Source of the DNA: an uncultured Candidatus Saccharibacteria bacterium
GTDB taxonomy: Bacteria; Patescibacteriota; Minisyncoccia; Phycocordibacterales; CAIZLB01
Length of the DNA stretch: 64,000 nucleotides
Assembly: GCA_964627085.1 (NCBI GenBank)
Contig: CAZVIP010000003.1
Span: 19,689 to 83,688 of the forward strand
Reading direction: 5' to 3'
The number at the start of each line of letters is the position of its first letter. Position 1 is the first letter of the stretch. The translations under genes and the position numbers were made by a program. A model generated the notes under the pieces. The model was not told the origin of the DNA and did not search any database. It was given only the letters and a program-made list of their open reading frames with translations. Below are positions 1-57,598 of the stretch, piece after piece.

Positions 1-686
1 CTACTGACAGCATCAACGAAGGGTTCTATCTCTATCCCATCATGACCACCATCAGGGTCATCTCCACAGAGCAAGACACGCTGGACAGTGCCGCGGTAAT
101 CCTGCAGTTTAGAGACAAGACAATCTGGATCATCACCAATTTGCGAGAGTGCCTCGCGATTTACTTGCAAGACAAACTCAGGCAACTTCCCTTGCACCCT
201 CTCTTTTACATCTTGGATACTCGCCGGTGTCGGCCACTCAGTATTAAGTTGCAACATGTCGAGGTTGGGGCCAGCAAGTTCCATTGCTTTTGCAATTTCC
301 TTAGCAGAAATTTTGTATTCTGTATAGTTGAAGATGAGACACCGACGGAGATGAATTTCAAACTCCCTCGGATACAGTCTCGTAAACATCTTTTGAACAC
401 ATTCCTGACTCGGATAGCGACCACCAGCTGGTTCCTCAGCGACGGTCTCAGGGCCGCAATTAATGCCGACAACAAACTTACTTCGCGAGCCATGTTTGCG
501 CTCACTGTAATATTGCCTGACGGCATCCTGCATCTGGCTTGTGCAAGTGAGGCCAGCAACATAAATTACCGGGCTTGGCTTTTTAGACTTTTCTGGACTC
601 ATGACTTTGTTTCTTTCTATTTTGGTTTTGGGCTTCAGCGTTCTGCTTGGTCCAATTTTGGATTGTGTATTGGTTTTGGTCGGCAT
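1..686 (-). CDS. Hypothetical protein, N-terminal ~228 aa (C-terminus lies beyond the window start); function not recognised
   Basis: I translated the minus strand by hand. There is an ATG at 684-686 and the frame stays open down to position 1 (MPTKTNTQSKIGPS...VIYVAGLTCTSQ...FVVGINCGPETVAEEPAGG...). The annotated + ORF 42..707 is its shadow and does not read like a protein. Confidence 0.45.
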   Translation of the reverse strand, partial: MPTKTNTQSKIGPSRTLKPKTKIERNKVMSPEKSKKPSPVIYVAGLTCTSQMQDAVRQYYSERKHGSRSKFVVGINCGPETVAEEPAGGRYPSQECVQKMFTRLYPREFEIHLRRCLIFNYTEYKISAKEIAKAMELAGPNLDMLQLNTEWPTPASIQDVKERVQGKLPEFVLQVNREALSQIGDDPDCLVSKLQDYRGTVQRVLLCGDDPDGGHDGIEIEPFVDAVS

Positions 687-952
687 CACGGTATTGTTTT
701 GCCTTAGAACTTATTCTCTGGATTAAAGAGTACCCCCTATCCATAACTTGTCAATTGTGTTGTTGTCCAAACTGACAGTGATTCTATTCAGGCAAAATTG
801 ATACCAACCACACTTTCTTTTATGCTTTGACAAAGCCTAAATACAGTGCTATAATATACAAGCACCCCGTTTCGACATACCGTCGACAGGAAGACGTGCA
901 CTGAACCCGCCAATGCATAAAAACTACACGCAAAGGCAAACCCACACAGAAA

Positions 953-26621: not shown

Positions 26622-28094
26622 ATGAAAACTGCTACACTGAAAGTAACACACATCGGCCGAATCACCACAGTCTCTCAAGACTTTGCATACGGCTTTATCA
26701 GCATCGCCACGGTCTCCAAGATCGACGATATCCAACACGGTCTTGCGACCACAGTGGATATCTACATCCATCAAAATGATTGCAGCTCACGACCTCTCAG
26801 GGTCGGCATGCTTGTATCATTTGATGTCACACCTGACCTAACACGGGCGGGTGCGTTCCGAGCAATCGGAGCTGTTGAGGAAATCGAGGCAGAACTCCTC
26901 CCTGAAGGCCAACAGCCGATGGAAGGATTCAACGCTCTCGCGCCCTTTGCTGGGACATCCACGCTTGCACAAGCCGATAACGGTGGCTACATCCCGCCAA
27001 CACAAGCACAGGCACCAAAGATGAAGGCTTCCGACCCGGCAACACTCGCATTGGTTAGTGCAAACAACCCGGCGCCTGGCATCCCACGGGACCACACGGT
27101 CCCGGAAAACGTTGACGAGCTTATGGTATTGTTTCTACAAAACCAATACCCCTCGCTAGTTAGTTTCGGTGCGCACTTTGGTCTGGACTCGGATGAAACT
27201 GAGTTCAATGAGCAAGTATCAGCAGCGACAGAAGAACTGAGAGGACTCGGCATGGATACCCAAGTCGGAATCCTCGAGAACGAGGCAGCTCACTTCTTGT
27301 CATTCCGCAAGGCCTTGGTCATTATGAAGCGCGAAAAACTCATCCGGAAAGACGCCATCATCCCGATGGAGTTCTTACCAGACTTCTTCGCAGCAGTTCC
27401 AGTTTGGTTCCATTTCGGAAGTGATGAGGAGCACAGGTTGGCAACTAACGGCGATCAGCGTGGGGCCTTGCTGGTTCCACCAAGAATCAGAGCATTCTGC
27501 AGCATTTTCCCCAACCAAAACTGGGTAGACATGCTATTGATGTTCAATCGCCGTCCAAGAACACACCAGATGTATGCAGGAGATCAAATCCCACTAAGCG
27601 TCCTTCGTCGTGTTCGGGAGATGCTCCCACATTTTGATCACGTGGTCATCATGACCCCTTATCACGATGTGGCAGGAAGGGATTGGCAGAGGCTTAGCAC
27701 CCTCCGTAATCCTGACCCATACATCATTGGAGTCAAGGTAGGGGTTCCATACTTCTTCATTCTCGCCAGGTTCAGCGACAGCGGGACATTCCCTGCTCAT
27801 CACGAACTAATTGCAGACACAATGAAATTCTTGGACAACAACAAGGACAAGTTGAGAGGTTTCAACTCAACACCAGGTCTCGAGTGGCTCGGATACGACC
27901 CTATCAATCCCAGCCGGACAGTAGGGGACATTTCTTCCATGAATGGCATGGGTGTTGGTCGGGCAAACTCCCTCGGTGATCATCTCATCAAAACAGCCGA
28001 AGAAGCTCTCCTTGCTTTCGAGCAAGGAAAACTCTTCGATTGGCTCCGGGGAGCAAAGCTTGAACCAGTGACTGAAACAGCTTCGGCAAAATAA
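26622..28094 (+). CDS. Hypothetical 490-aa protein: cold-shock-domain-like N-terminus fused to a large domain of unknown function
   Basis: The N-terminus (LKVTHIGRITTVSQDFAYGFISI...TVDIYIHQNDC...VGMLVSFDV) follows the CspA pattern (KGxVKWFNxxKGFGFI...VFVHxSAI...VxFxV). The gene is GC-rich, with its own promoter, long leader and terminator. Confidence 0.6.
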   Translation: MKTATLKVTHIGRITTVSQDFAYGFISIATVSKIDDIQHGLATTVDIYIHQNDCSSRPLRVGMLVSFDVTPDLTRAGAFRAIGAVEEIEAELLPEGQQPMEGFNALAPFAGTSTLAQADNGGYIPPTQAQAPKMKASDPATLALVSANNPAPGIPRDHTVPENVDELMVLFLQNQYPSLVSFGAHFGLDSDETEFNEQVSAATEELRGLGMDTQVGILENEAAHFLSFRKALVIMKREKLIRKDAIIPMEFLPDFFAAVPVWFHFGSDEEHRLATNGDQRGALLVPPRIRAFCSIFPNQNWVDMLLMFNRRPRTHQMYAGDQIPLSVLRRVREMLPHFDHVVIMTPYHDVAGRDWQRLSTLRNPDPYIIGVKVGVPYFFILARFSDSGTFPAHHELIADTMKFLDNNKDKLRGFNSTPGLEWLGYDPINPSRTVGDISSMNGMGVGRANSLGDHLIKTAEEALLAFEQGKLFDWLRGAKLEPVTETASAK

Positions 28095-31014: not shown

Positions 31015-31222
31015 TATGATTTATGGTAATAAATAATTTCCGCAATTCGCAAAATGCGCGATCACCCCACCCCTATCGCCCAATATTGCCTTTTGCATAT
31101 TTTGGAATACTATATACACGGAAAATTCCATTCACGAGGTTTGGGTTAGTGTCAGGCAAAATACTTTGTCCCCTACTCACCTCAATCAGCACAACACGGC
31201 GAGAGCCAAACCACAATTGAAT

Positions 31223-32086
31223 ATGAAACCGCACACTATTAACCCAAAACTCCGCTATGCATGCATTGCTCGTGCAGAAATTGCTGCGAACCTAGCTCAA
31301 AAGAAAACTCGAACCAGCAGAGAAAATGCATGGAAAAACATCTGCCGCGACATTCGTCGAGGGCGCTCGACATTCGGAGACCCACAAAACCCTCTGCTCG
31401 ACAAGCTCATCTTGTCTCTTGGGCAGAGCGTTTTGCACAAACCTGACTTACTTGGAAGCATAGTAGAGAGGGCCAAAAGAAATATTACCGCCCTGCAAGA
31501 AGCTGGCAACACCGTGGTCTTCGTCGTCGAATATGAAGAAAAAGGTGCGAGGCTCGCATATATCGGGCCGTACGGAGGTGAAAGTCTCGGAAATCTTATG
31601 CCCAGCAATCCAGGAACACGCTCAGAGTTTCTTATATTTGCTGGTATCACTTCCGGTGATGCGAATGCTGTTGAAACCTTTGTCGATAGCATCTTGCCCC
31701 GAAAACCAAAAAGTGCCGCGGAGTTGATGGCAATTCCGGGTAGCCCTGAACCAGCAGTCGAACTACCATTTCAAAAATTCGTCATGGTGGACACAGGCAA
31801 ATTCATGTGCACAGATTCAGATGGACTATCTCCAGTGCAGGATGGGCCATGCCTAGTGGATCCAGAGCATGCTGAACAGTTGCGTCCAGCCCTGCTAGGC
31901 CTCGGATTACGTGATTTCGAAGTGTATATCTGGGGAAGCTGCTTATGCTGGGACGACTTATCCAAAAACGACCAGAACGGCTTAGTTATCAAAAACGTGC
32001 AGTCTGAACGGCTCCAGCAACGCCTCGGAGATATCCGCCTTGCATTACAGAGCCTCGGTTGGGGTCTGGAAACTGCCCCAGCATAA
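31223..32086 (+). CDS. Hypothetical protein (GC-rich orphan)
   Basis: Clean ORF from ATG 31223 (MKPHTINPK...). I recognise no family. It is followed by a strong bidirectional terminator. Confidence 0.5.
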   Translation: MKPHTINPKLRYACIARAEIAANLAQKKTRTSRENAWKNICRDIRRGRSTFGDPQNPLLDKLILSLGQSVLHKPDLLGSIVERAKRNITALQEAGNTVVFVVEYEEKGARLAYIGPYGGESLGNLMPSNPGTRSEFLIFAGITSGDANAVETFVDSILPRKPKSAAELMAIPGSPEPAVELPFQKFVMVDTGKFMCTDSDGLSPVQDGPCLVDPEHAEQLRPALLGLGLRDFEVYIWGSCLCWDDLSKNDQNGLVIKNVQSERLQQRLGDIRLALQSLGWGLETAPA

Positions 32087-51660: not shown

Positions 51661-54117
51661 ATGAATTACAGAAACACAAACAATGCTCCATACGGTCAAA
51701 GAGACTCTCGCCCACAACAAGGCGGATATGGAAATAATTATGGACCACGAGGTGGTTCGGCACAAAGACCTGCCCCAAGACAAGGTGGCTATAACCCTGC
51801 TGGACCAAGACAAGATTCGAGACAAGGATACGGTGCGAGAAATAATGCACCTTCAAGACCATATTCGAATCAAGGTGGTAATCAAGGTGGCGGATATGAC
51901 AATGCAAGACCTTATAACAACCAGAGACCTATGCATGGCACAGGAACAGTACGAAGAGAAACAGGTAAAGCTGATGCGGTTACCGAATTTAAACAACTCG
52001 TCAACCAAGCACTTCAAGCTGAGGGTAAGAGTCTTGAATCAATTTCAGGAAGTCAGACAAATAATTTTTCAGGACAAACTAATCAAACAAATATGAAATC
52101 AAATCAAAATTTTACAAACTCTCCTTTTCCAAGCTCAAGCGAGGATGAATCGCTCGGCGAACGATTTGATCATGACGATGTTATGAGTGATGACCAAGTC
52201 ATCCCACTAGAAATCGACAATGCAGACGAAGGTTACGCTGATACAACTCAGGGTGATTTTGAAAGTGATGCAGATGCAAACATGGCAACAAGCAGTCAGC
52301 CGGCAGGTGCACAGAAACGTGGCGGACAAGGTGGCGGTAAAAGTTCAAAGAACCGCATGCGCCCTCGCCCACTCGGTATCCCAAAGAAACACACAGCCAT
52401 CCAGCAAAGTAATCCAAATATTCCAATCCCTCCAGTTCCAGCCGGATCAATTCGAATTATTCCACTTGGTGGAGTAGAAGAAATCGGTATGAATATGACA
52501 GTCATTGAAATTGGAAATGACATCATCGTTATTGATGCCGGATTTAAATTCAAGGATTCTGATACACCAGGAATCGACTATATCCTTCCAAACACAAAAT
52601 ATCTTGAGGAAAGAAAGGATAGAATTCGAGCCATGATTGTCACTCACGGTCACCTCGACCACATCGGTGCTCTCCCATTTATCATGGACAGAATCGGTAC
52701 ACCACCAATCTATACACGAAACCTTACTTCCCTCATGCTCAAGAAGCGTCAGGCAGAATTCCCACACACGAAGCCTTTTGAATATCGTGTCATGGAAGGT
52801 AATGAAAGAGTAAAAATCGGTGAATTGTCAGTACAATTTTTCGGTGTAAGTCACAGTATTCCAGACTCACTTGGTATCGCCATTGAGACACCTCATGGCT
52901 ATGTCATGACTCCTGGAGACTTCAAACTCGATCACCGAGAAGGCGTTGTCTGCGAAGACGAAGAAAGAAACTATTCTATCTTTAATGGTAAGAACGTGCT
53001 CTGTTTTATTGGTGAATCAACAAACATCGAGAACCCAGGCTTTTCTACACCTGACTATATCGTTAATGAAAACCTTGAAGAAATTGTAAAAAATTCTACA
53101 GGAAGACTCATCATGGGTATGTTCTCTTCTCACGTAAACCGAATCGCACACGTTATTCACGCATGTGAAAAGCTTGGTAAAAAAGTGATCATTGAAGGAC
53201 GTAGTATGAAAAACAATGTCGACATTACTATTCAGGCTGGTATTTTGAAAGTAGCAAAAAGCACATTCATCAACCCACAAGACATTGAACAGTATGCGCC
53301 CGACAGGATTGTTATCATTGCCACAGGTGCGCAGGGTGAAGAATTCGCTTTCCTCATGCGTATTTCAAATAATCAGTACAAGCACTTCAAGCTTACTGAG
53401 CGAGACACAGTTGTACTCTCTTCTTCTATTGTCCCAGGAAATGAAAAAGCGGTACAAAAACTCAAGGACAGTATTGCAAGACAAGGCGCAAGACTTATGC
53501 ACTACCGAAGTTCAGATGTATATATCCACTCAACTGGTCACGGTAACCGTGGTGAAATTGAATGGCTACACCGAAAATTGCGAGCGAAGTTCTTCGTCCC
53601 AATTCACGGTAACCACTACATGCTCAAGCTTCATGCAGAGCTCGCACACCAACTCGGTATTCCAAAAGAAAATATCATCATCCCTGATGACGGTACTATC
53701 ATGGAAATCGATACCACTGGTGAGAAGTTCACAAGACTTGCTGTAAAAGCACCTGACAACACTGTCATGGTTGACGGATTCACTATCGGTGATATCCAAG
53801 ATGTTGTTATCCGCGATAGACAAATTCTTTCACAAGACGGAATCTATGTTGTCGTAGGTATCATCAACGCAAACACGGGACGACTCAAAAAATCTCCAGA
53901 TATTATTTCTCGAGGATCTGTCTACTTGCGAGAATCACAAGAACTCCTCCGCGAGATTCGATTCTTGGTCAAGAACACAGTTGAACAAGTGACACGTGAT
54001 CAGCACCCAGTAAACATTGATTATGTTAAAGACGTCGTCTCAGATGTGCTCGGACGATTCATCTTCCAGCAAACAGCTAAGCGACCGATTATTATCCCGG
54101 TGATGATATGTGTATAA
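51661..54117 (+). CDS. rnj: Ribonuclease J with ~250-aa low-complexity (RGG/GY/Q/N-rich) N-terminal extension
   Basis: The metallo-beta-lactamase motif THGHLDHIGALP, the beta-CASP region and the C-terminal domain follow an N-terminus made of QGGYGNNYGPRGG repeats. Confidence 0.85.
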   Translation: MNYRNTNNAPYGQRDSRPQQGGYGNNYGPRGGSAQRPAPRQGGYNPAGPRQDSRQGYGARNNAPSRPYSNQGGNQGGGYDNARPYNNQRPMHGTGTVRRETGKADAVTEFKQLVNQALQAEGKSLESISGSQTNNFSGQTNQTNMKSNQNFTNSPFPSSSEDESLGERFDHDDVMSDDQVIPLEIDNADEGYADTTQGDFESDADANMATSSQPAGAQKRGGQGGGKSSKNRMRPRPLGIPKKHTAIQQSNPNIPIPPVPAGSIRIIPLGGVEEIGMNMTVIEIGNDIIVIDAGFKFKDSDTPGIDYILPNTKYLEERKDRIRAMIVTHGHLDHIGALPFIMDRIGTPPIYTRNLTSLMLKKRQAEFPHTKPFEYRVMEGNERVKIGELSVQFFGVSHSIPDSLGIAIETPHGYVMTPGDFKLDHREGVVCEDEERNYSIFNGKNVLCFIGESTNIENPGFSTPDYIVNENLEEIVKNSTGRLIMGMFSSHVNRIAHVIHACEKLGKKVIIEGRSMKNNVDITIQAGILKVAKSTFINPQDIEQYAPDRIVIIATGAQGEEFAFLMRISNNQYKHFKLTERDTVVLSSSIVPGNEKAVQKLKDSIARQGARLMHYRSSDVYIHSTGHGNRGEIEWLHRKLRAKFFVPIHGNHYMLKLHAELAHQLGIPKENIIIPDDGTIMEIDTTGEKFTRLAVKAPDNTVMVDGFTIGDIQDVVIRDRQILSQDGIYVVVGIINANTGRLKKSPDIISRGSVYLRESQELLREIRFLVKNTVEQVTRDQHPVNIDYVKDVVSDVLGRFIFQQTAKRPIIIPVMICV

Positions 54118-54121
54118 CATT

Positions 54122-54183
54122 TTATAAAAATATATTGACCTCCGGTGCAAAATCCGCAAAGTCGCTCAATATATTTTTATAAA
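54122..54183. repeat. Perfect 17-bp inverted repeat (ttataaaaatatattga / tcaatatatttttataa) flanking a 28-bp GC-richer spacer
   Basis: Directly visible, immediately after the rnj stop codon. Confidence 0.6.
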
Positions 54184-54202
54184 ATGAAAGAAGTGAAACA
54201 AG

Positions 54203-54245
54203 AAAGCGCCCTGCGGAATTGATTCCGCAGGGCGCTTTCTTGGTT
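54203..54245 (+). terminator. Perfect 17-bp stem hairpin (gaaagcgccctgcggaa/ttccgcagggcgctttc), probable rnj terminator
   Basis: Directly visible; the downstream T-run is short (CTTTCTTGG). Confidence 0.6.
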
Positions 54246-54287
54246 AGGTTCATGCCCAGATTCCAGATATGAACCGTTGTGGATATA

Positions 54288-54316
54288 TTGACAAAACACA
54301 ATAAAAGGAGTATAAT
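54288..54316 (+). promoter_or_regulatory. Perfect consensus sigma70 promoter TTGACA-17-TATAAT
   Basis: TTGACA at 54288-54293, 17-nt spacer, TATAAT at 54311-54316. It lies ~260 nt upstream of the 54579 start codon. Confidence 0.65.
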
Positions 54317-54578
54317 ATTAGGCGTATAAGTACCTTGAAATTACAGCTTACTCAAGATATTTCTTTTGGGATTTTTGCAAATACACCCGCAAAAGATACT
54401 GACTATCTACCCCCTCACCCCTATCGTTACAGCCATATAGAGCCATATTACAGACCTGACAATATTGTCAGCAAGTGAACATGACATGATATGGAAATAT
54501 GTGACTGTAACGATAAACCTGTGTGGGCTAAGTTTTCAGTAAACAACGGCCGTAATGAGCCTTACCCAAAATTAAATC

Positions 54579-55823
54579 ATGAAATTAGGACAAATCCTCG
54601 CCAGACTATTCGCTTCGGAAGTTAAACCACAATCCATGGACCAACCGGAGATTCCAGAAAATGGAACCTTCGACCAATACTTGGGTATCTGGAACGCGAC
54701 AAACTGGCGCCATAAACAGAGGAATGAACTTGCGGTCAAACTCGCAGAGTCAGTTACAACGACTGATGAAGCAGCAAGATTCCCAACAGAAATCCTTGCC
54801 AACACCAACGGCGCACGTGAAATTGTCTATAAATTTGAGATTGATCACATCGATGACTTCGATACTCTTCTCAAAATTCATAGGAACTACTCTGAGCCAT
54901 CCCAAAGGCGTGAACTTGCCGGTGAAAAACTTACACCAATGCTCAATACAGCAAAGCGCTGCATTGCATATTGGTCAGGTGCCCACTGTCAAGGGGCTGT
55001 CTCATTAGATACGTGTGAAGAGTTGGTAAAGTTGTGTGCAACCACCGACGATTTTCGTTTATTAAATTGGAACATTAGCACCGAAAAAACCCAAGACGCA
55101 AAATTATTAGAAAACGCCATGATGCTTAAATGGACGAGGGCTGTTGAAAGTGAATTAGTATCGGCAGATACCACACAAGCTCTACACACCCTTGCAAGAA
55201 ACGCACCTCATATTGAAGATCTTCAAAGGAAGATCCATGCAAAATGGTGTGAAGTTGCCTTGAAAGAGGTTCAGGCCTTAATCGGAAAAAAGCGCAACAT
55301 TTTTTTGCTTAGACATCTGATCAAGTTTCTGAGGTCTTGCCCTTATGAATCTGAGGCTCGAGTAACAATTTATGGTGAAATCAATAACTTGATTGACCCC
55401 TTCATAACAAAGATCCAGTCACTCGACAGGCTCAAACGTTTGAAGAAGAGAATTGACGAGCCATCAGAAACCTTTACAAAGTTTCTGGCGCAGTGGAATA
55501 AACTTTCGCTAATTGAAGTGGAAAAAGCAACCACAATTGCGCAAGTAAAGATGGCTTATGACAGAGGTGATGCCGGTGCAAAAGAGGTGGCTATTAAGAA
55601 GATGCTACAGTTAGCGAGACACCCCGTCGACCTAACAGGTGTCTTTGACTCTGATCAAAACCAACCCGCATGCTGGAAATCAGCTTGCTGGTGGCGTCGT
55701 CTTGACCTTGCCAAAACCTCAACAGACCTAAACACCTTGTATGCCGAACTCGTGTCTTACGAGGAAGGCTACAAGGAAAAGCTTGACGCTATTACGCAAA
55801 AACGCCTAGACATGTTGTCATGA
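54579..55823 (+). CDS. Hypothetical 414-aa protein (predicted all-helical), first gene of a two-gene operon
   Basis: Clean ORF of moderately higher GC with no recognised motif. Confidence 0.55.
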   Translation: MKLGQILARLFASEVKPQSMDQPEIPENGTFDQYLGIWNATNWRHKQRNELAVKLAESVTTTDEAARFPTEILANTNGAREIVYKFEIDHIDDFDTLLKIHRNYSEPSQRRELAGEKLTPMLNTAKRCIAYWSGAHCQGAVSLDTCEELVKLCATTDDFRLLNWNISTEKTQDAKLLENAMMLKWTRAVESELVSADTTQALHTLARNAPHIEDLQRKIHAKWCEVALKEVQALIGKKRNIFLLRHLIKFLRSCPYESEARVTIYGEINNLIDPFITKIQSLDRLKRLKKRIDEPSETFTKFLAQWNKLSLIEVEKATTIAQVKMAYDRGDAGAKEVAIKKMLQLARHPVDLTGVFDSDQNQPACWKSACWWRRLDLAKTSTDLNTLYAELVSYEEGYKEKLDAITQKRLDMLS

Positions 55824-56176
55824 ACCAACCCAAAAAATCCCTCACTATCACCCATGACTGCGACCCGATAACGGAAGCTGATGTGTGGATGCTTGAGGAA
55901 CTAGGACGGGCGATAATCAGCTGTCATACAGCACTGTCGCTTGGACGAGAAGTTCGCTTTGTCCCTGATGGTTTAAAGGAGCTGCTTACAGGTGATACGC
56001 GCAAGCGTATTGCCGGAGAAGTTTCAGGTTGCAAACGCACCACTGCGTTTATCACCTACACAGGTCTTGGGGTTCAAGCTGTAATTCAGTTCAAAAAGGA
56101 AAAAACTATTGTGAAAGAAATTGCGATTTGTTTCGCACATGAAGCACAGCAGTTGCAAATCCTTTGGGGACTTTAG
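55820..56176 (+). CDS. Hypothetical 118-aa protein, translationally coupled (ATGA overlap) to the upstream gene
   Basis: 4-nt start/stop overlap. A terminator lies downstream. Confidence 0.5.
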   Translation: MNQPKKSLTITHDCDPITEADVWMLEELGRAIISCHTALSLGREVRFVPDGLKELLTGDTRKRIAGEVSGCKRTTAFITYTGLGVQAVIQFKKEKTIVKEIAICFAHEAQQLQILWGL

Positions 56177-56232
56177 AAAGAAATTTCCGGTACCGATACG
56201 TAAATCGGTAGGATGAAAATCCGAAACCACCC

Positions 56233-56276
56233 GTCTTGGCGTTGTCCAAGGGGTGGTTTTTAAATTTAGGTATTTT
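56233..56276 (+). terminator. Intrinsic terminator after the two-gene operon
   Basis: aaaccacccgtcttgg...ccaaggggtggttt followed by TTTTTAAATTT. Confidence 0.55.
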
Positions 56277-56368
56277 TGATGTACGAAAAAATCATACCCT
56301 AAATACTGTATACTTATAGCTATATCAGTATTAATTATCGCTATAGATTAGCCATTCCACCAATTCTT

Positions 56369-57598
56369 ATGGACCGATTTTATTCCAAGACAAATAAATT
56401 AAATACTGTGCTTTTGATTTTTGTTGCTGTACTTATTCTTTCTTTTCACTTTTTCTTCATCTATTTTGTGAACTCGACATATGTCACAGCCTTTGTCGGA
56501 GAAAAAGCTGTGAGTCTTATATATGCCATTGGAGCGATATTGAATATCTCTTTATTCCTGATGATTCCCCGAATGCTGCGGAAGAAAGGGATTATCTCGC
56601 TGACACTCACCTTCACATTTATTGAGGCCTTTTCGCTTATATTCCTCGCCTTCCCCTTGCATCCTGTGATTGCTATCTTGGCTTTTTTGCTTCATATGAG
56701 TGTAGCCAGTGCACTTATCTACTGCATGGATATTATTCTTGAAAAATACACTAAGCCAGAAGAGGCCGGATCTATGCGTGGAACATTTTTGACCATGTGG
56801 AATATCCCTCCGATTGTTACTCCATTTATTGCAGGTGCCATACTCGGTAGCGACGGAAATAATCTTATTTCTGCAATGAATAATGATGTAATTAACTCAC
56901 TCTATACATCAGGATTCTGGAAAATATATATTATCTCTGCCGTATTTCTTATTCCATTTATTGTTATCCTCAAAACGACATTTCCGAATTTCAAGGATGC
57001 TGAATACTCAACAATGAACATTAGACATGCGTTCAAGTCTTTTTATAAAAATTCGAATATTTTTGATGTCTTTGCGGATAGAATTTTGCTCAATTTATAC
57101 TTTGCTTGGAATGTTGTATTTCTACCTATTTATCTTCACGATTATATTCATTTCACCTGGAATCAAGTTGGTATTATTTTGAGTGTCATGTTACTTCCTT
57201 TTGTGTTGCTACAGAGAACTATTGGTAGAATTGAAGATCAAACTCATCAGGAGAAAAGCCTCCTCATTTTTGGCTTTTTGATTATGGCGGTTGGGACAAT
57301 TATTCAACCACTCCTAAGTACACCTAACCTCATCGCTTGGTGTGCATTACTTTTTATGACACATATCGGGGCTGCCTTTGTTGAAGTATCGAGTGAGAGC
57401 TATTTCTTCAGGCATGTGAAGCCTGAGAATTCGAACTATATCAGCCTTTTCCGCATGACACGAACTATACCTTATTTCATTATGCCGATACTAATTCCGC
57501 TTATACTGTGGTTCTTGCCATTTGGATATATGTTCTTTGTCCTTGGTGTAATTATGCTTCTTGGTGTGAGATATGCATTCTTGATTCGAGGCAACTAA
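56369..57598 (+). CDS. MFS-type transporter (about 12 TM)
   Basis: Polytopic hydrophobic protein of 409 aa. An MFS-like loop with basic residues (PRMLRKKG) follows TM2. Confidence 0.6.
   Translation: MDRFYSKTNKLNTVLLIFVAVLILSFHFFFIYFVNSTYVTAFVGEKAVSLIYAIGAILNISLFLMIPRMLRKKGIISLTLTFTFIEAFSLIFLAFPLHPVIAILAFLLHMSVASALIYCMDIILEKYTKPEEAGSMRGTFLTMWNIPPIVTPFIAGAILGSDGNNLISAMNNDVINSLYTSGFWKIYIISAVFLIPFIVILKTTFPNFKDAEYSTMNIRHAFKSFYKNSNIFDVFADRILLNLYFAWNVVFLPIYLHDYIHFTWNQVGIILSVMLLPFVLLQRTIGRIEDQTHQEKSLLIFGFLIMAVGTIIQPLLSTPNLIAWCALLFMTHIGAAFVEVSSESYFFRHVKPENSNYISLFRMTRTIPYFIMPILIPLILWFLPFGYMFFVLGVIMLLGVRYAFLIRGN

What the first reader, a model, noticed from the sequence alone, without database searches (positions are those of the whole stretch)
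54122..56276. Orphan two-gene operon with perfect consensus promoter, ~260-nt structured leader and 4-nt translational coupling, preceded by paired perfect hairpins
Two perfect 17-bp palindromic structures in tandem lie after rnj: the IR 54122-54183 and the hairpin 54203-54240. A textbook TTGACA-17-TATAAT promoter follows. The promoter does not lead straight into a gene but into ~260 nt of leader. The leader carries a perfect 16-bp palindrome CTGACAATATTGTCAG (54448-54463). That palindrome is nested inside a 10-bp inverted repeat atcgttacag...ctgtaacgat separated by ~80 nt. Then come a 414-aa gene and an overlapping 118-aa gene (ATGA overlap) with no recognisable domains, closed by a terminator. 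This level of regulatory investment in an unknown large/small protein pair, plausibly riboswitch- or repressor-controlled, marks it as a discrete functional module. It is possibly a toxin-immunity or sensor-effector pair.
Basis: partly seen in the sequence, partly recalled or inferred. Interest (0 to 1): 0.7.

Follow-up and report, generated by a model that had tools for sequence, protein, structure and literature searches.

The report
Strain-variable orphan gene islet with conserved leader
This is a small, self-contained block of two genes of unknown function, inserted between two housekeeping genes of an uncultured ultra-small (CPR/Paceibacteria) bacterium; its genes get swapped between strains, so it is not a fixed toxin-immunity pair, and its most interesting part is a long structured leader that is conserved with the only distant relative known.

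Summary
The sequence features are real; a few coordinates are slightly off. The host is a Patescibacteria/Paceibacteria genome. About 60 related species keep the order SBP5-rnj-MFS-CAP, and in the nearest ones rnj abuts MFS. Window 54118-56368 is therefore a lineage-specific ~2.25-kb insert at a junction where other species carry unrelated inserts.

The two proteins match no Pfam, NCBIfam, PHROG, PADLOC or PDB entry. An exhaustive search found one full-length relative of the 414-aa protein (P0003, 34% identity). Weaker hits share a ~38-aa helical repeat.

The two genes are not an obligate pair:
- P0003 stands alone, with no 118-aa partner.
- In a sister strain (L002) the promoter, leader and 118-aa gene are kept at 95-97.5% identity. 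The 414-aa ORF is replaced, from codon 3 to the ATGA overlap, by two unrelated genes.

The leader is under selection. Window and P0003 share promoter spacing and a 46-column block before the ATG (37/42 aligned bases identical, against 46% in the CDS). They also share a 10-bp basal stem with two compensatory changes. The perfect palindrome is not conserved, and there is no Rfam match.

My reading is a moron-like accessory islet carrying a new candidate cis-regulatory leader. The toxin-immunity idea is not supported. Interest is moderate.

The parts
54118..54186 (.). AT-rich perfect 21-bp inverted repeat with a 27-nt loop, starting right after the rnj stop codon. Most likely the native rnj terminator-type hairpin, with a degraded apex in this strain.
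   Evidence: unique in the window, 0 expected by chance. Related species have long A/T-armed hairpins with a GC core at this position. L002 keeps the right arm, and the 10 nt before it are the reverse complement of the window's left-loop bases. That implies a longer perfect hairpin, or an inverted loop, in L002.
54196..54245 (.). GC-rich 20-24-bp hairpin flanked by an A-run and a T-run: a bidirectional intrinsic terminator at the left border of the islet.
   Evidence: L002 keeps the hairpin with two compensatory pair changes (GCGCCCTGCGG/CCGCAGGGCGC versus GCTCCCCGCGG/CCGCGGGGAGC). There it also closes a convergent 140-aa gene.
54288..54316 (+). Sigma-70 consensus promoter TTGACA-17-TATAAT.
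   Evidence: Both hexamers are unchanged in L002; two substitutions fall in the spacer. In L084 a TTGACT-17-CATACT lies at the same distance (35 nt) from the conserved CGTAwA block (read directly).
54323..54578 (+). ~256-nt 5' leader. The transcription start is inferred, not mapped. Conserved blocks: CGTATAAGTACCTTGAAA (54323-54340), AAAGATAC (54392-54399), the long hairpin and the 3' block.
   Evidence: Fold z = -5.5, L002 z = -4.7, L084 z = -3.9. Homology to the L084 upstream region. No Rfam match.
54422..54515 (+). Long leader hairpin. The basal 10-bp stem is ATCGTTACAG / CTGTAACGAT; the tip is the palindrome CTGACAATATTGTCAG (54456-54471).
   Evidence: I2. L084 has TTCGTCACAG / CTGTGACGAA at the homologous place: 8 invariant pairs plus 2 pairs changed on both sides. 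The inner part differs in length and sequence. The palindrome centre is mutated in L002.
54537..54584 (+). Conserved 3' leader block plus start codon: CAGTAAACAAC GGCCGTAATGAGCC TTACCC AAAATTAAATC ATGAAA.
   Evidence: 37 of 42 aligned bases are identical to L084. Local score 37 against 18.8 +/- 2.5 in 1000 shuffles. CDS nucleotide identity is only 45.9%, with a best 45-nt window of 71%. nhmmer finds the block nowhere else in 1.4 Mb of related loci.
54579..55823 (+). 414-aa all-alpha ORFan (p414). It has one canonical copy of a ~38-aa helical repeat (residues ~300-335) and further weak, non-significant matches to it. No signal peptide is evident.
   Evidence: The start at 54579 is supported in two ways: P0003's internal Met10 (MKILKTLAAW...) aligns with the window's Met1, and L002 uses the same ATG.
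55820..56176 (+). 118-aa alpha/beta ORFan (p118), translationally coupled through an ATGA overlap.
   Evidence: 97.5% nucleotide identity in L002 and L003, where it is coupled by the same ATGA to an unrelated 203-aa membrane protein.
56224..56261 (+). Intrinsic terminator of the islet: AAACCACCC...GGGTGGTTT plus a T-run.
   Evidence: (I17).

Best explanation
The locus is a lineage-specific, recombinationally mosaic accessory islet of about 2.25 kb (54118-56368). It sits in the rnj-MFS intergenic junction of a Paceibacteria (CPR) chromosome, a junction that takes insertions in other species too.

It works as a self-contained, moron-like transcription unit:
1. A consensus sigma-70 promoter fires into a ~256-nt structured 5' UTR.
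2. The 5' UTR is followed by a cytoplasmic alpha-helical repeat protein (p414).
3. A small alpha/beta protein (p118) is translated by ATGA coupling.
4. An intrinsic terminator closes the unit.

The two upstream 'perfect hairpins' are terminators that insulate the unit. One is rnj's own; the other is a bidirectional one at the islet's edge.

The leader is a cis-acting element that belongs to the p414 gene family. Its promoter spacing, 5' block, basal hairpin stem and a ~46-nt single-stranded block abutting the SD-less start codon are all kept under purifying selection. I infer that it controls mRNA fate or translation initiation after transcription, by binding a trans factor. That factor may be p414 itself. 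Coupling then passes the control on to whatever ORF follows.

The two genes are not a dedicated pair. Modules are exchanged at exact ORF boundaries between strains.

Shown: the insertion, the mosaicism, the orphan status, the leader conservation and the compensatory changes. Inferred: transcription from the promoter, RNA-level function of the leader, and any biochemical role of the proteins.
For: Insertion and hotspot:
- The order SBP5-rnj-MFS-CAP-methyltransferase is conserved in about 60 Paceibacteria loci.
- In the nearest species rnj and MFS are 11-160 nt apart.
- About 13 other species carry unrelated 0.5-2.7-kb inserts at the same junction.

Mosaicism:
- L002 keeps the promoter and leader (95% identity, window 54280-54584) and p118 plus MFS.
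- The p414 ORF is replaced exactly by two unrelated ORFs of 169 and 203 aa, and there is an extra 140-aa gene upstream.
- The same right-hand junction is seen in a second sample, L003.

Recent exchange:
- Window and L002 differ at 0-4 positions per 100 nt across p118, the intergenic region and the first ~150 nt of MFS.
- Deeper in MFS this rises to 10-11 per 100 nt, where 46 codons differ synonymously and 6 non-synonymously.

Orphan status.

Leader constraint:
- The 3' block is 37/42 identical, against 45.9% for the CDS and 33% at third codon positions.
- The 10-bp stem has 2 compensatory changes.
- The structure z-scores are -5.5, -4.7 and -3.9.
- The promoter sits at a conserved distance from the 5' block.

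Atypical for the genome: genes here lack SD sequences, and several have -10-like boxes within about 10 nt of the ATG.

Mobility of the leader-plus-gene unit: in L084 the 1.6-kb promoter-leader-gene-terminator segment is bracketed by a 27-nt, 93%-identical direct repeat that duplicates the 5' end of ychF.
Against: - Only two independent lineages, plus one 95% sister allele, carry the leader. Covariation therefore rests on two pairs.
- No transcript data exist. The conserved 3' block could instead be a DNA-level site (an operator or internal promoter). (C/G)AAAAT lies 6-7 nt before the ATG in both lineages, which fits a leaderless-type -10 box.
- The composition of the islet is only mildly deviant (GC3 z of about 0.9).
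- No flanking direct repeats or recombinase are found in the window.
- p118 shows no clear sign of purifying selection (5 non-synonymous against 4 synonymous codon changes), so its status as a functional protein rests on ORF integrity and conserved coupling.
- Protein function remains unassigned. Structure models are low-confidence (pLDDT 54 and 59).
Confidence: 0.6

Rival explanations
1. Toxin-immunity or toxin-antitoxin pair. p414 would be a toxin or effector and p118 its cognate neutraliser, autoregulated through the palindrome.
For: Two overlapping genes of unequal size in a variable, horizontally exchanged islet, under a strong promoter. Orphan immunity genes next to swapped toxin cassettes are known from polymorphic-toxin loci (general knowledge), and L002 superficially resembles that arrangement.
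Against: - No toxin, immunity or defence domain is found in Pfam, NCBIfam or PADLOC.
- p414 is a helical repeat protein.
- Its only full-length homologue has no partner gene.
- p118 is kept nearly unchanged while the upstream gene is replaced by unrelated proteins. This is the opposite of cognate co-variation.
- The palindrome is 140 nt downstream of the promoter and is not conserved.
Confidence: 0.07
2. The leader is a metabolite-sensing riboswitch or another classical attenuator controlling the operon.
For: The 5' UTR is long and highly structured, with conserved unpaired blocks and a covarying stem. Long leaders are unusual in this genome.
Against: - No Rfam family reaches threshold, and the weak hits all fall on the terminator hairpins rather than the leader.
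- No terminator-like hairpin lies within the leader on the + strand.
- The start region is unpaired in all MFE folds.
- The downstream genes are not metabolic.
- Only two lineages are known.
Confidence: 0.1
3. The hairpin-bearing leader is a DNA-level recombination or docking site. This would be a cassette platform like an integron attC/attI or a small mobilisable element, and it would explain the exact ORF swaps and the 27-nt duplication in L084.
For: The p414 ORF is replaced exactly between the conserved leader and p118. A 27-nt direct repeat brackets the leader-plus-gene unit in L084. The junction is a hotspot.
Against: - No integrase or transposase lies within or next to the islet.
- The stem sequences do not fit the attC core sites RYYYAAC / GTTRRRY (read directly).
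- The swap junction lies at the start codon, 64 nt downstream of the hairpin.
- No direct repeats flank the window's islet.
- The divergence gradient fits ordinary homologous recombination in the flanks.
Confidence: 0.1
4. Largely non-functional DNA. The islet would be a decaying remnant of foreign DNA, and p118 (and perhaps p414) would not be functional proteins.
For: There are no homologues for p118. Its dN/dS cannot be told apart from neutral with only 9 differences. The genome carries several other high-GC ORFs with no Pfam match.
Against: - p414 is conserved over its full length at 34% identity although synonymous sites are saturated.
- The leader blocks are under strong constraint.
- The p118 ORF and its ATGA coupling are intact in two alleles with different upstream genes.
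- The window allele is 100% identical in at least 24 contigs from many samples.
Confidence: 0.08

Closest known systems
Phage 'morons' and small genomic islets (autonomous promoter-gene-terminator units inserted between genes that are adjacent in relatives)
   Same: The unit is present or absent between two otherwise adjacent conserved genes. It has its own strong promoter and terminator. Its mosaic boundaries coincide with ORF boundaries, and it carries ORFan cargo.
   Different: It sits in a chromosomal housekeeping context (rnj/MFS), not in a prophage. There are no phage homologues. It carries an unusually long conserved leader.
Genomic islands and HGT regions reported in Patescibacteria (PMC12455944)
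   Same: A CPR genome with horizontally exchanged accessory DNA. That paper reports hundreds of genomic islands, transferred genes and prophages in 125 genomes.
   Different: This one is far smaller than typical IslandViewer-type islands and has no mobility genes. It is defined here by synteny and strain comparison rather than by composition.
Type II toxin-antitoxin and polymorphic toxin-immunity modules
   Same: A two-gene overlapping operon located in variable DNA.
   Different: There are no toxin or antitoxin domains, no conserved pairing and no promoter-overlapping operator. The small gene stays constant while the large gene is swapped.
Autoregulatory 5' leaders bound by the encoded protein (for example ribosomal-protein leaders) and other Rfam cis-regulatory leaders
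   Same: A conserved structured 5' UTR tied to one gene family, with a conserved block next to the start codon and a covarying stem.
   Different: There is no match to any Rfam model. No RNA-binding activity of p414 is known, and only two lineages carry the element.
Unnamed ~38-aa helical repeat family (P0004-P0016; consensus KWNELSLxEVEKATTxEExKxAYxxAPxxSEA)
   Same: p414 and P0003 each contain one clear copy of the unit (independent E-values 1e-9 and 4e-9). Their other matches to it are not significant.
   Different: Typical members are tandem arrays with an N-terminal HTH-like segment, and they have short SD-bearing leaders. p414 lacks the N-terminal segment and the regular array. The family itself has no Pfam, NCBIfam or PDB counterpart.

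Membership tests
Toxin-antitoxin / toxin-immunity pair | Recognisable toxin (or antitoxin/immunity) domain in at least one partner | tested here: not met
   No hits in Pfam, NCBIfam, PADLOC, PHROGs or PDB sequences.
Toxin-antitoxin / toxin-immunity pair | The two genes co-occur (and co-vary) wherever either is found | tested here: not met
   P0003 stands alone in L084 and L085. In L002 and L003, p118 follows unrelated 169-aa and 203-aa genes.
Toxin-antitoxin / toxin-immunity pair | Toxicity of one product, neutralised by the other | not testable with these tools
   Needs expression experiments.
Riboswitch / known cis-regulatory RNA family | Match to a curated covariance model at its gathering score | tested here: not met
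   Rfam 15 at gathering score finds only three tRNAs in the window. The E-value scan of 54050-54700 gives only sub-threshold hits, nearly all on the terminator hairpins.
Riboswitch / known cis-regulatory RNA family | Conserved secondary structure supported by covariation | tested here: inconclusive
   A 10-bp stem has 2 double substitutions and 8 invariant pairs, but across only two lineages.
Riboswitch / known cis-regulatory RNA family | Expression platform (terminator/antiterminator or start-site-sequestering helix) | tested here: not met
   No + strand terminator lies in the leader. The start codon region is unpaired in the MFE folds.
Moron-like islet / genomic islet | Present between genes that are adjacent in relatives | tested here: met
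   rnj and MFS are 11-160 nt apart in L004, L006, L007 and L009 and in most of the ~60 syntenic loci.
Moron-like islet / genomic islet | Own promoter and terminator | tested here: met
   Consensus promoter at 54288-54316 and terminator at 56224-56261. These are predictions, not transcript maps.
Moron-like islet / genomic islet | Residence in a phage or prophage (strict definition of a moron) | tested here: not met
   The flanks are chromosomal housekeeping genes. No phage similarity was found.
Integron cassette / attC | attC hairpin with RYYYAAC / GTTRRRY core sites, and an integron integrase in the neighbourhood | tested here: not met
   The stem arms ATCGTTACAG / CTGTAACGAT and TTCGTCACAG / CTGTGACGAA do not fit the cores (read directly). 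None of the four neighbouring genes scanned (SBP5, RNase J, MFS, CAP) is a recombinase. The rest of the window was not scanned for integrases.
38-aa helical repeat family (P0004-P0016) | Tandem array of WNxLSLxEVExAxT...AYxxAP units | tested here: inconclusive
   One significant unit is found (residues 306-329, independent E-value 1e-9). The other matches are not significant.

The most novel reading that the evidence does not exclude
The structured leader and the helical-repeat protein form a self-regulating RNA-protein module that moves as a unit; in L084 it is bracketed by a 27-nt target duplication. In this species the leader would also serve as an 'expression dock'. Unrelated ORFs would be exchanged precisely at the start codon and read through, by coupling, into a constant small partner (p118). 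That would be a previously undescribed cassette-exchange platform in CPR bacteria.
Probability: 0.07. Interest if true: 0.75.

Novelty: new member of a known kind. Interest (0 to 1): 0.4.

Why it matters
If the reading is right, most of the locus is ordinary: one more small accessory islet of ORFans in a CPR genome.

Two points carry some value:
- It gives a clean, base-resolved example of module exchange at exact ORF boundaries in Patescibacteria. It also shows a recurrent insertion hotspot at rnj-MFS across many species. Both bear on how these streamlined genomes acquire novelty.
- The leader is a candidate new cis-regulatory RNA, in a genome that otherwise has almost no 5' UTRs and no Shine-Dalgarno sequences. 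It could therefore be a handle on post-transcriptional control in CPR bacteria, which is essentially unstudied.

The proteins themselves add two families of unknown function. One is linked to an undescribed 38-aa helical repeat.

Tried and rejected
Domain and family searches, all negative:
- Pfam, NCBIfam, PHROGs, PADLOC and PDB sequence searches of p414 and p118.
- Pfam, PADLOC and PHROGs searches of the three L002 cassette proteins.
- Pfam, NCBIfam, PADLOC and PHROGs searches of P0003, and Pfam, NCBIfam, PHROGs and PDB-profile searches of the repeat family.

RNA searches:
- Rfam at gathering score and at E-value threshold found nothing credible in the leader.

Homologue and locus searches:
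- Word-index homologue searches of p414, p118 and P0003 returned only same-species clusters or the query itself.
- JGI metagenome scans with the p414/P0003 alignment and with a leader DNA pattern found nothing.
- Two viral-contig pattern scans and phage tblastn found nothing.
- nhmmer with the leader 3' block, run over 1.4 Mb of Paceibacteria loci and the window, found no further copies.
- There are no paralogues of either protein, or of the leader, in the window.

Structure:
- Single-sequence AlphaFold models were low-confidence.
- Fold searches gave only generic alpha-solenoid hits for p414 (E > 0.04, TM <= 0.22).
- The afdb50 library was unavailable.

Ideas considered and dropped:
- Flanking direct repeats in the window. 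A 15-nt, 80% match between the rnj 3' end and the MFS 5' end involves coding sequence native to both genes, and an 11-nt match is at chance level. Both were rejected as att-like sites.
- A small ORF in the leader. The 18-codon and 6-codon ORFs are not conserved in L084.
- A pseudogene remnant as the origin of the leader. This was rejected because the blocks are better conserved than the CDS.
- Micro-diversity of the window allele. There is none: four further contigs are 100% identical.
Full report
**Observation.**
- Directly after the rnj stop codon (54117) lies a perfect 21-nt AT-rich inverted repeat, 54118-54138 / 54166-54186, with a 27-nt loop. It is unique in the window.
- Next comes a GC-rich hairpin with 24-nt arms, 54196-54245, flanked by an A-run and a T-run.
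- A 12/12 TTGACA-17-TATAAT promoter follows at 54288-54316.
- The 414-aa ORF starts at 54579 and overlaps a 118-aa ORF (55820-56176) by ATGA.
- A terminator lies at 56224-56261.
- The 16-nt palindrome is at 54456-54471, eight bases right of the stated position. It forms the tip of a 27-nt-arm hairpin (54422-54515) whose base is ATCGTTACAG / CTGTAACGAT.
- The leader folds much better than shuffled sequence (z = -5.5).
- A consensus promoter is not rare in itself. A second 12/12 site lies at 827-855, and at the 1-mismatch setting used 18 of 100 shuffles give two or more matches.

**Host and genomic context.** RNase J relatives place the window in Patescibacteria/Paceibacteria. The nearest GTDB representatives have 85-88% RNase J identity.
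- About 60 fetched loci keep the order SBP5-rnj-MFS-CAP-methyltransferase.
- In the nearest species rnj is followed by MFS after only 11-160 nt. That gap usually holds one long A/T-armed terminator hairpin and a promoter.
- Window 54118-56368 is therefore a ~2.25-kb lineage-specific insertion.
- About 13 other species carry unrelated 0.5-2.7-kb inserts at the same junction. These encode secreted, membrane or orphan ORFs, so the junction is a recurrent insertion hotspot.
- The first hairpin looks like rnj's own terminator with a damaged apex. In sister allele L002, the bases before the right arm are the reverse complement of the window's left-loop bases.
- The second hairpin is a bidirectional terminator. 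L002 keeps it with two compensatory pair changes, and there it also ends a convergent 140-aa gene.

**The proteins.** Neither protein matches Pfam, NCBIfam, PHROGs, PADLOC or any PDB sequence.
- Among 5.8 billion clustered proteins, each has only its own species cluster. The window allele is 100% identical in at least 24 contigs from many samples and in one NCBI genome.
- An exhaustive phmmer search of 1.8 billion representatives found one full-length relative of p414: P0003, 410 aa, 34% identity, E = 2e-40. A dozen weaker hits share a ~38-aa helical repeat, KWNELSLxEVEKATTxEExKxAYxxAPxxSEA.
- That repeat family has no Pfam, NCBIfam or PDB counterpart.
- p414 carries one clear unit of the repeat (residues ~306-329). 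Its other matches are not significant. It is predicted to be all-helical.
- p118 is predicted to be beta-alpha-alpha-alpha-beta-beta-beta, with pTM 0.55 and low confidence.
- Fold searches gave nothing significant.

**The pair is not a pair.**
- P0003 sits alone between ychF and a membrane ORF in L084 and L085. After its TGA, which again lies within an ATGA, only a three-codon ORF follows.
- L002 and L003 come from a lineage about 90-95% identical in DNA. In L002 the promoter and leader (window 54280-54584) are kept at 95% identity. p118 is kept at 97.5% in both loci.
- Everything from the third codon of the first ORF to the ATGA is replaced. The replacement is two unrelated genes: a 169-aa soluble protein and a 203-aa protein with two hydrophobic helices. 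BLASTP finds no similarity to p414.
- L002 also has an extra 140-aa gene, on the minus strand, upstream of the promoter.
- Window and L002 differ at 0-4 positions per 100 nt through p118, the intergenic region and the first ~150 nt of MFS. Deeper in MFS the figure climbs to 10-11 per 100 nt, almost all synonymous.
- The shared parts of the islet were therefore exchanged more recently than the core genome diverged. This fits homologous recombination in the flanks.

**The leader.** This is the part that holds up best. The region upstream of P0003 is homologous to the window's leader, even though the coding regions are only 45.9% identical in codon-aligned DNA (33% at third positions). The shared features are:
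- a -35/-10 pair (TTGACT-17-CATACT) at the same 35-nt distance from a 5' block, CGTAwA..ACCTTGAAA;
- the short block AAAGATAC;
- a long hairpin on a 10-bp basal stem. It reads TTCGTCACAG / CTGTGACGAA in L084 and ATCGTTACAG / CTGTAACGAT in the window. Eight pairs are invariant and two are changed on both sides, while the inner parts differ in length and sequence;
- a 46-column block that ends at the start codon, CAGyAAACAAC(A)GGCCrTArTGAGCC...AAAATT(G)AAATCATGAAA. Here 37 of 42 aligned bases are identical. The local score is 37 against 18.8 +/- 2.5 in shuffles, and the best 45-nt window anywhere in the CDS reaches only 71%.

The perfect palindrome is not conserved. Its centre is mutated in L002 and it is absent from L084, so it is a hairpin tip and not an operator.

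In L002, where the leader no longer precedes a p414-type gene, the sub-block AAACAAC has become AACCCAT. This hints that the sub-block is tied to the p414 family.

No Rfam family matches. No terminator lies inside the leader, and the start region is unpaired in all folds.

The genome as a whole lacks Shine-Dalgarno sequences, and several genes have -10-like boxes within about 10 nt of the ATG. A 256-nt leader is therefore exceptional here.

I found no further copies of the leader: not in 1.4 Mb of related loci, not in JGI metagenomes and not in viral contigs.

**Mobility.** In L084 the 1.6-kb promoter-leader-gene-terminator unit is bracketed by a 27-nt, 93%-identical direct repeat that duplicates the first 24 nt of ychF. 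This is the signature of an insertion. No recombinase is present there or in the window's islet, and no comparable repeat flanks the window's islet.

**Interpretation.**
- The best-supported reading is a moron-like accessory islet at an insertion hotspot, with modules that recombine at ORF boundaries.
- Its promoter-leader is a conserved cis-acting element of the p414 gene family. It most likely acts after transcription, on mRNA stability or processing or on SD-independent initiation, through a trans-acting binder that could be p414 itself. Translational coupling would extend that control to the downstream ORF.
- The RNA-level function, the transcription start and every protein function are inferences.
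- Rival readings and my confidence in each: toxin-immunity pair 0.07, riboswitch 0.1, DNA-level cassette platform 0.1, non-functional DNA 0.08.

**Novelty and score.**
- Small ORFan islets and horizontal exchange are known in Patescibacteria (PMC12455944). I therefore file the locus as a new member of a known kind.
- What raises it above background is the conserved leader in a nearly leaderless genome, together with the base-exact cassette swap.
- What limits it is that only two lineages are known and there is no functional handle on the proteins.
- Interest: 0.4.

Noticed in passing
window 827-855 (+) and ORF 953-1741: This is the second perfect TTGACA-17-TATAAT promoter in the window. It lies ~98 nt upstream of a 262-aa ORF with the highest GC in the window (0.536) and no Pfam match. 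Its leader is unrelated to the one studied here.
   Followed up: partly
window 42-707, 2047-2868, 26622-28094, 31166-32086: Four further ORFs with raised GC (0.47-0.51 against a mean of 0.42) and no Pfam domain. They are probably other foreign or orphan insertions in the same genome.
   Followed up: partly
whole window (start-codon upstream regions): Almost no gene has a Shine-Dalgarno sequence. Several genes have TATAAT-like boxes within about 10 nt of the ATG, which suggests widespread leaderless or near-leaderless mRNAs in this Paceibacteria genome.
   Followed up: partly
window 51661-52420: RNase J carries a ~250-residue N-terminal low-complexity extension rich in Q, G, N and P, ahead of the metallo-beta-lactamase / beta-CASP core.
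   Followed up: no
L084 1397-1423 and 2999-3025: A 27-nt direct repeat (25/27 identical) duplicates the first 24 nt of ychF. It brackets the 1.6-kb promoter-leader-P0003-terminator unit. This is an insertion signature with no recombinase gene in sight.
   Followed up: partly
L005, L080, L042, L050, L052, L038-L040, L071, L051, L058, L059, L066 (between rnj and MFS): Unrelated 0.5-2.7-kb inserts occupy the same rnj-MFS junction in other Paceibacteria species. They encode secreted or membrane proteins, a methyltransferase, a DUF559-like ORF and orphans.
   Followed up: partly
window 56369-57179 vs L002 2693-3503: There is a sharp divergence gradient inside the MFS gene. About 0-1 differences per 100 nt up to ~56500 rise to 10-11 per 100 nt, nearly all synonymous. 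This indicates a recombination breakpoint within MFS.
   Followed up: yes
window 54139-54165 vs L002 1-13: The 10 nt before the right arm of the first IR in L002 are the reverse complement of the 10 nt after the left arm in the window. Either L002 has a longer perfect palindrome or the loop is inverted between strains. The contig is too short to tell.
   Followed up: partly
P0004-P0016 (loci L086-L088): An undescribed family of tandem ~38-aa helical repeats, with an N-terminal HTH-like 'xxTGIxxxxxxxxLGxP' segment. The genes are scattered singly in CPR-like genomes. The family has no Pfam, NCBIfam or PDB counterpart.
   Followed up: partly
[not shown]
   Followed up: partly
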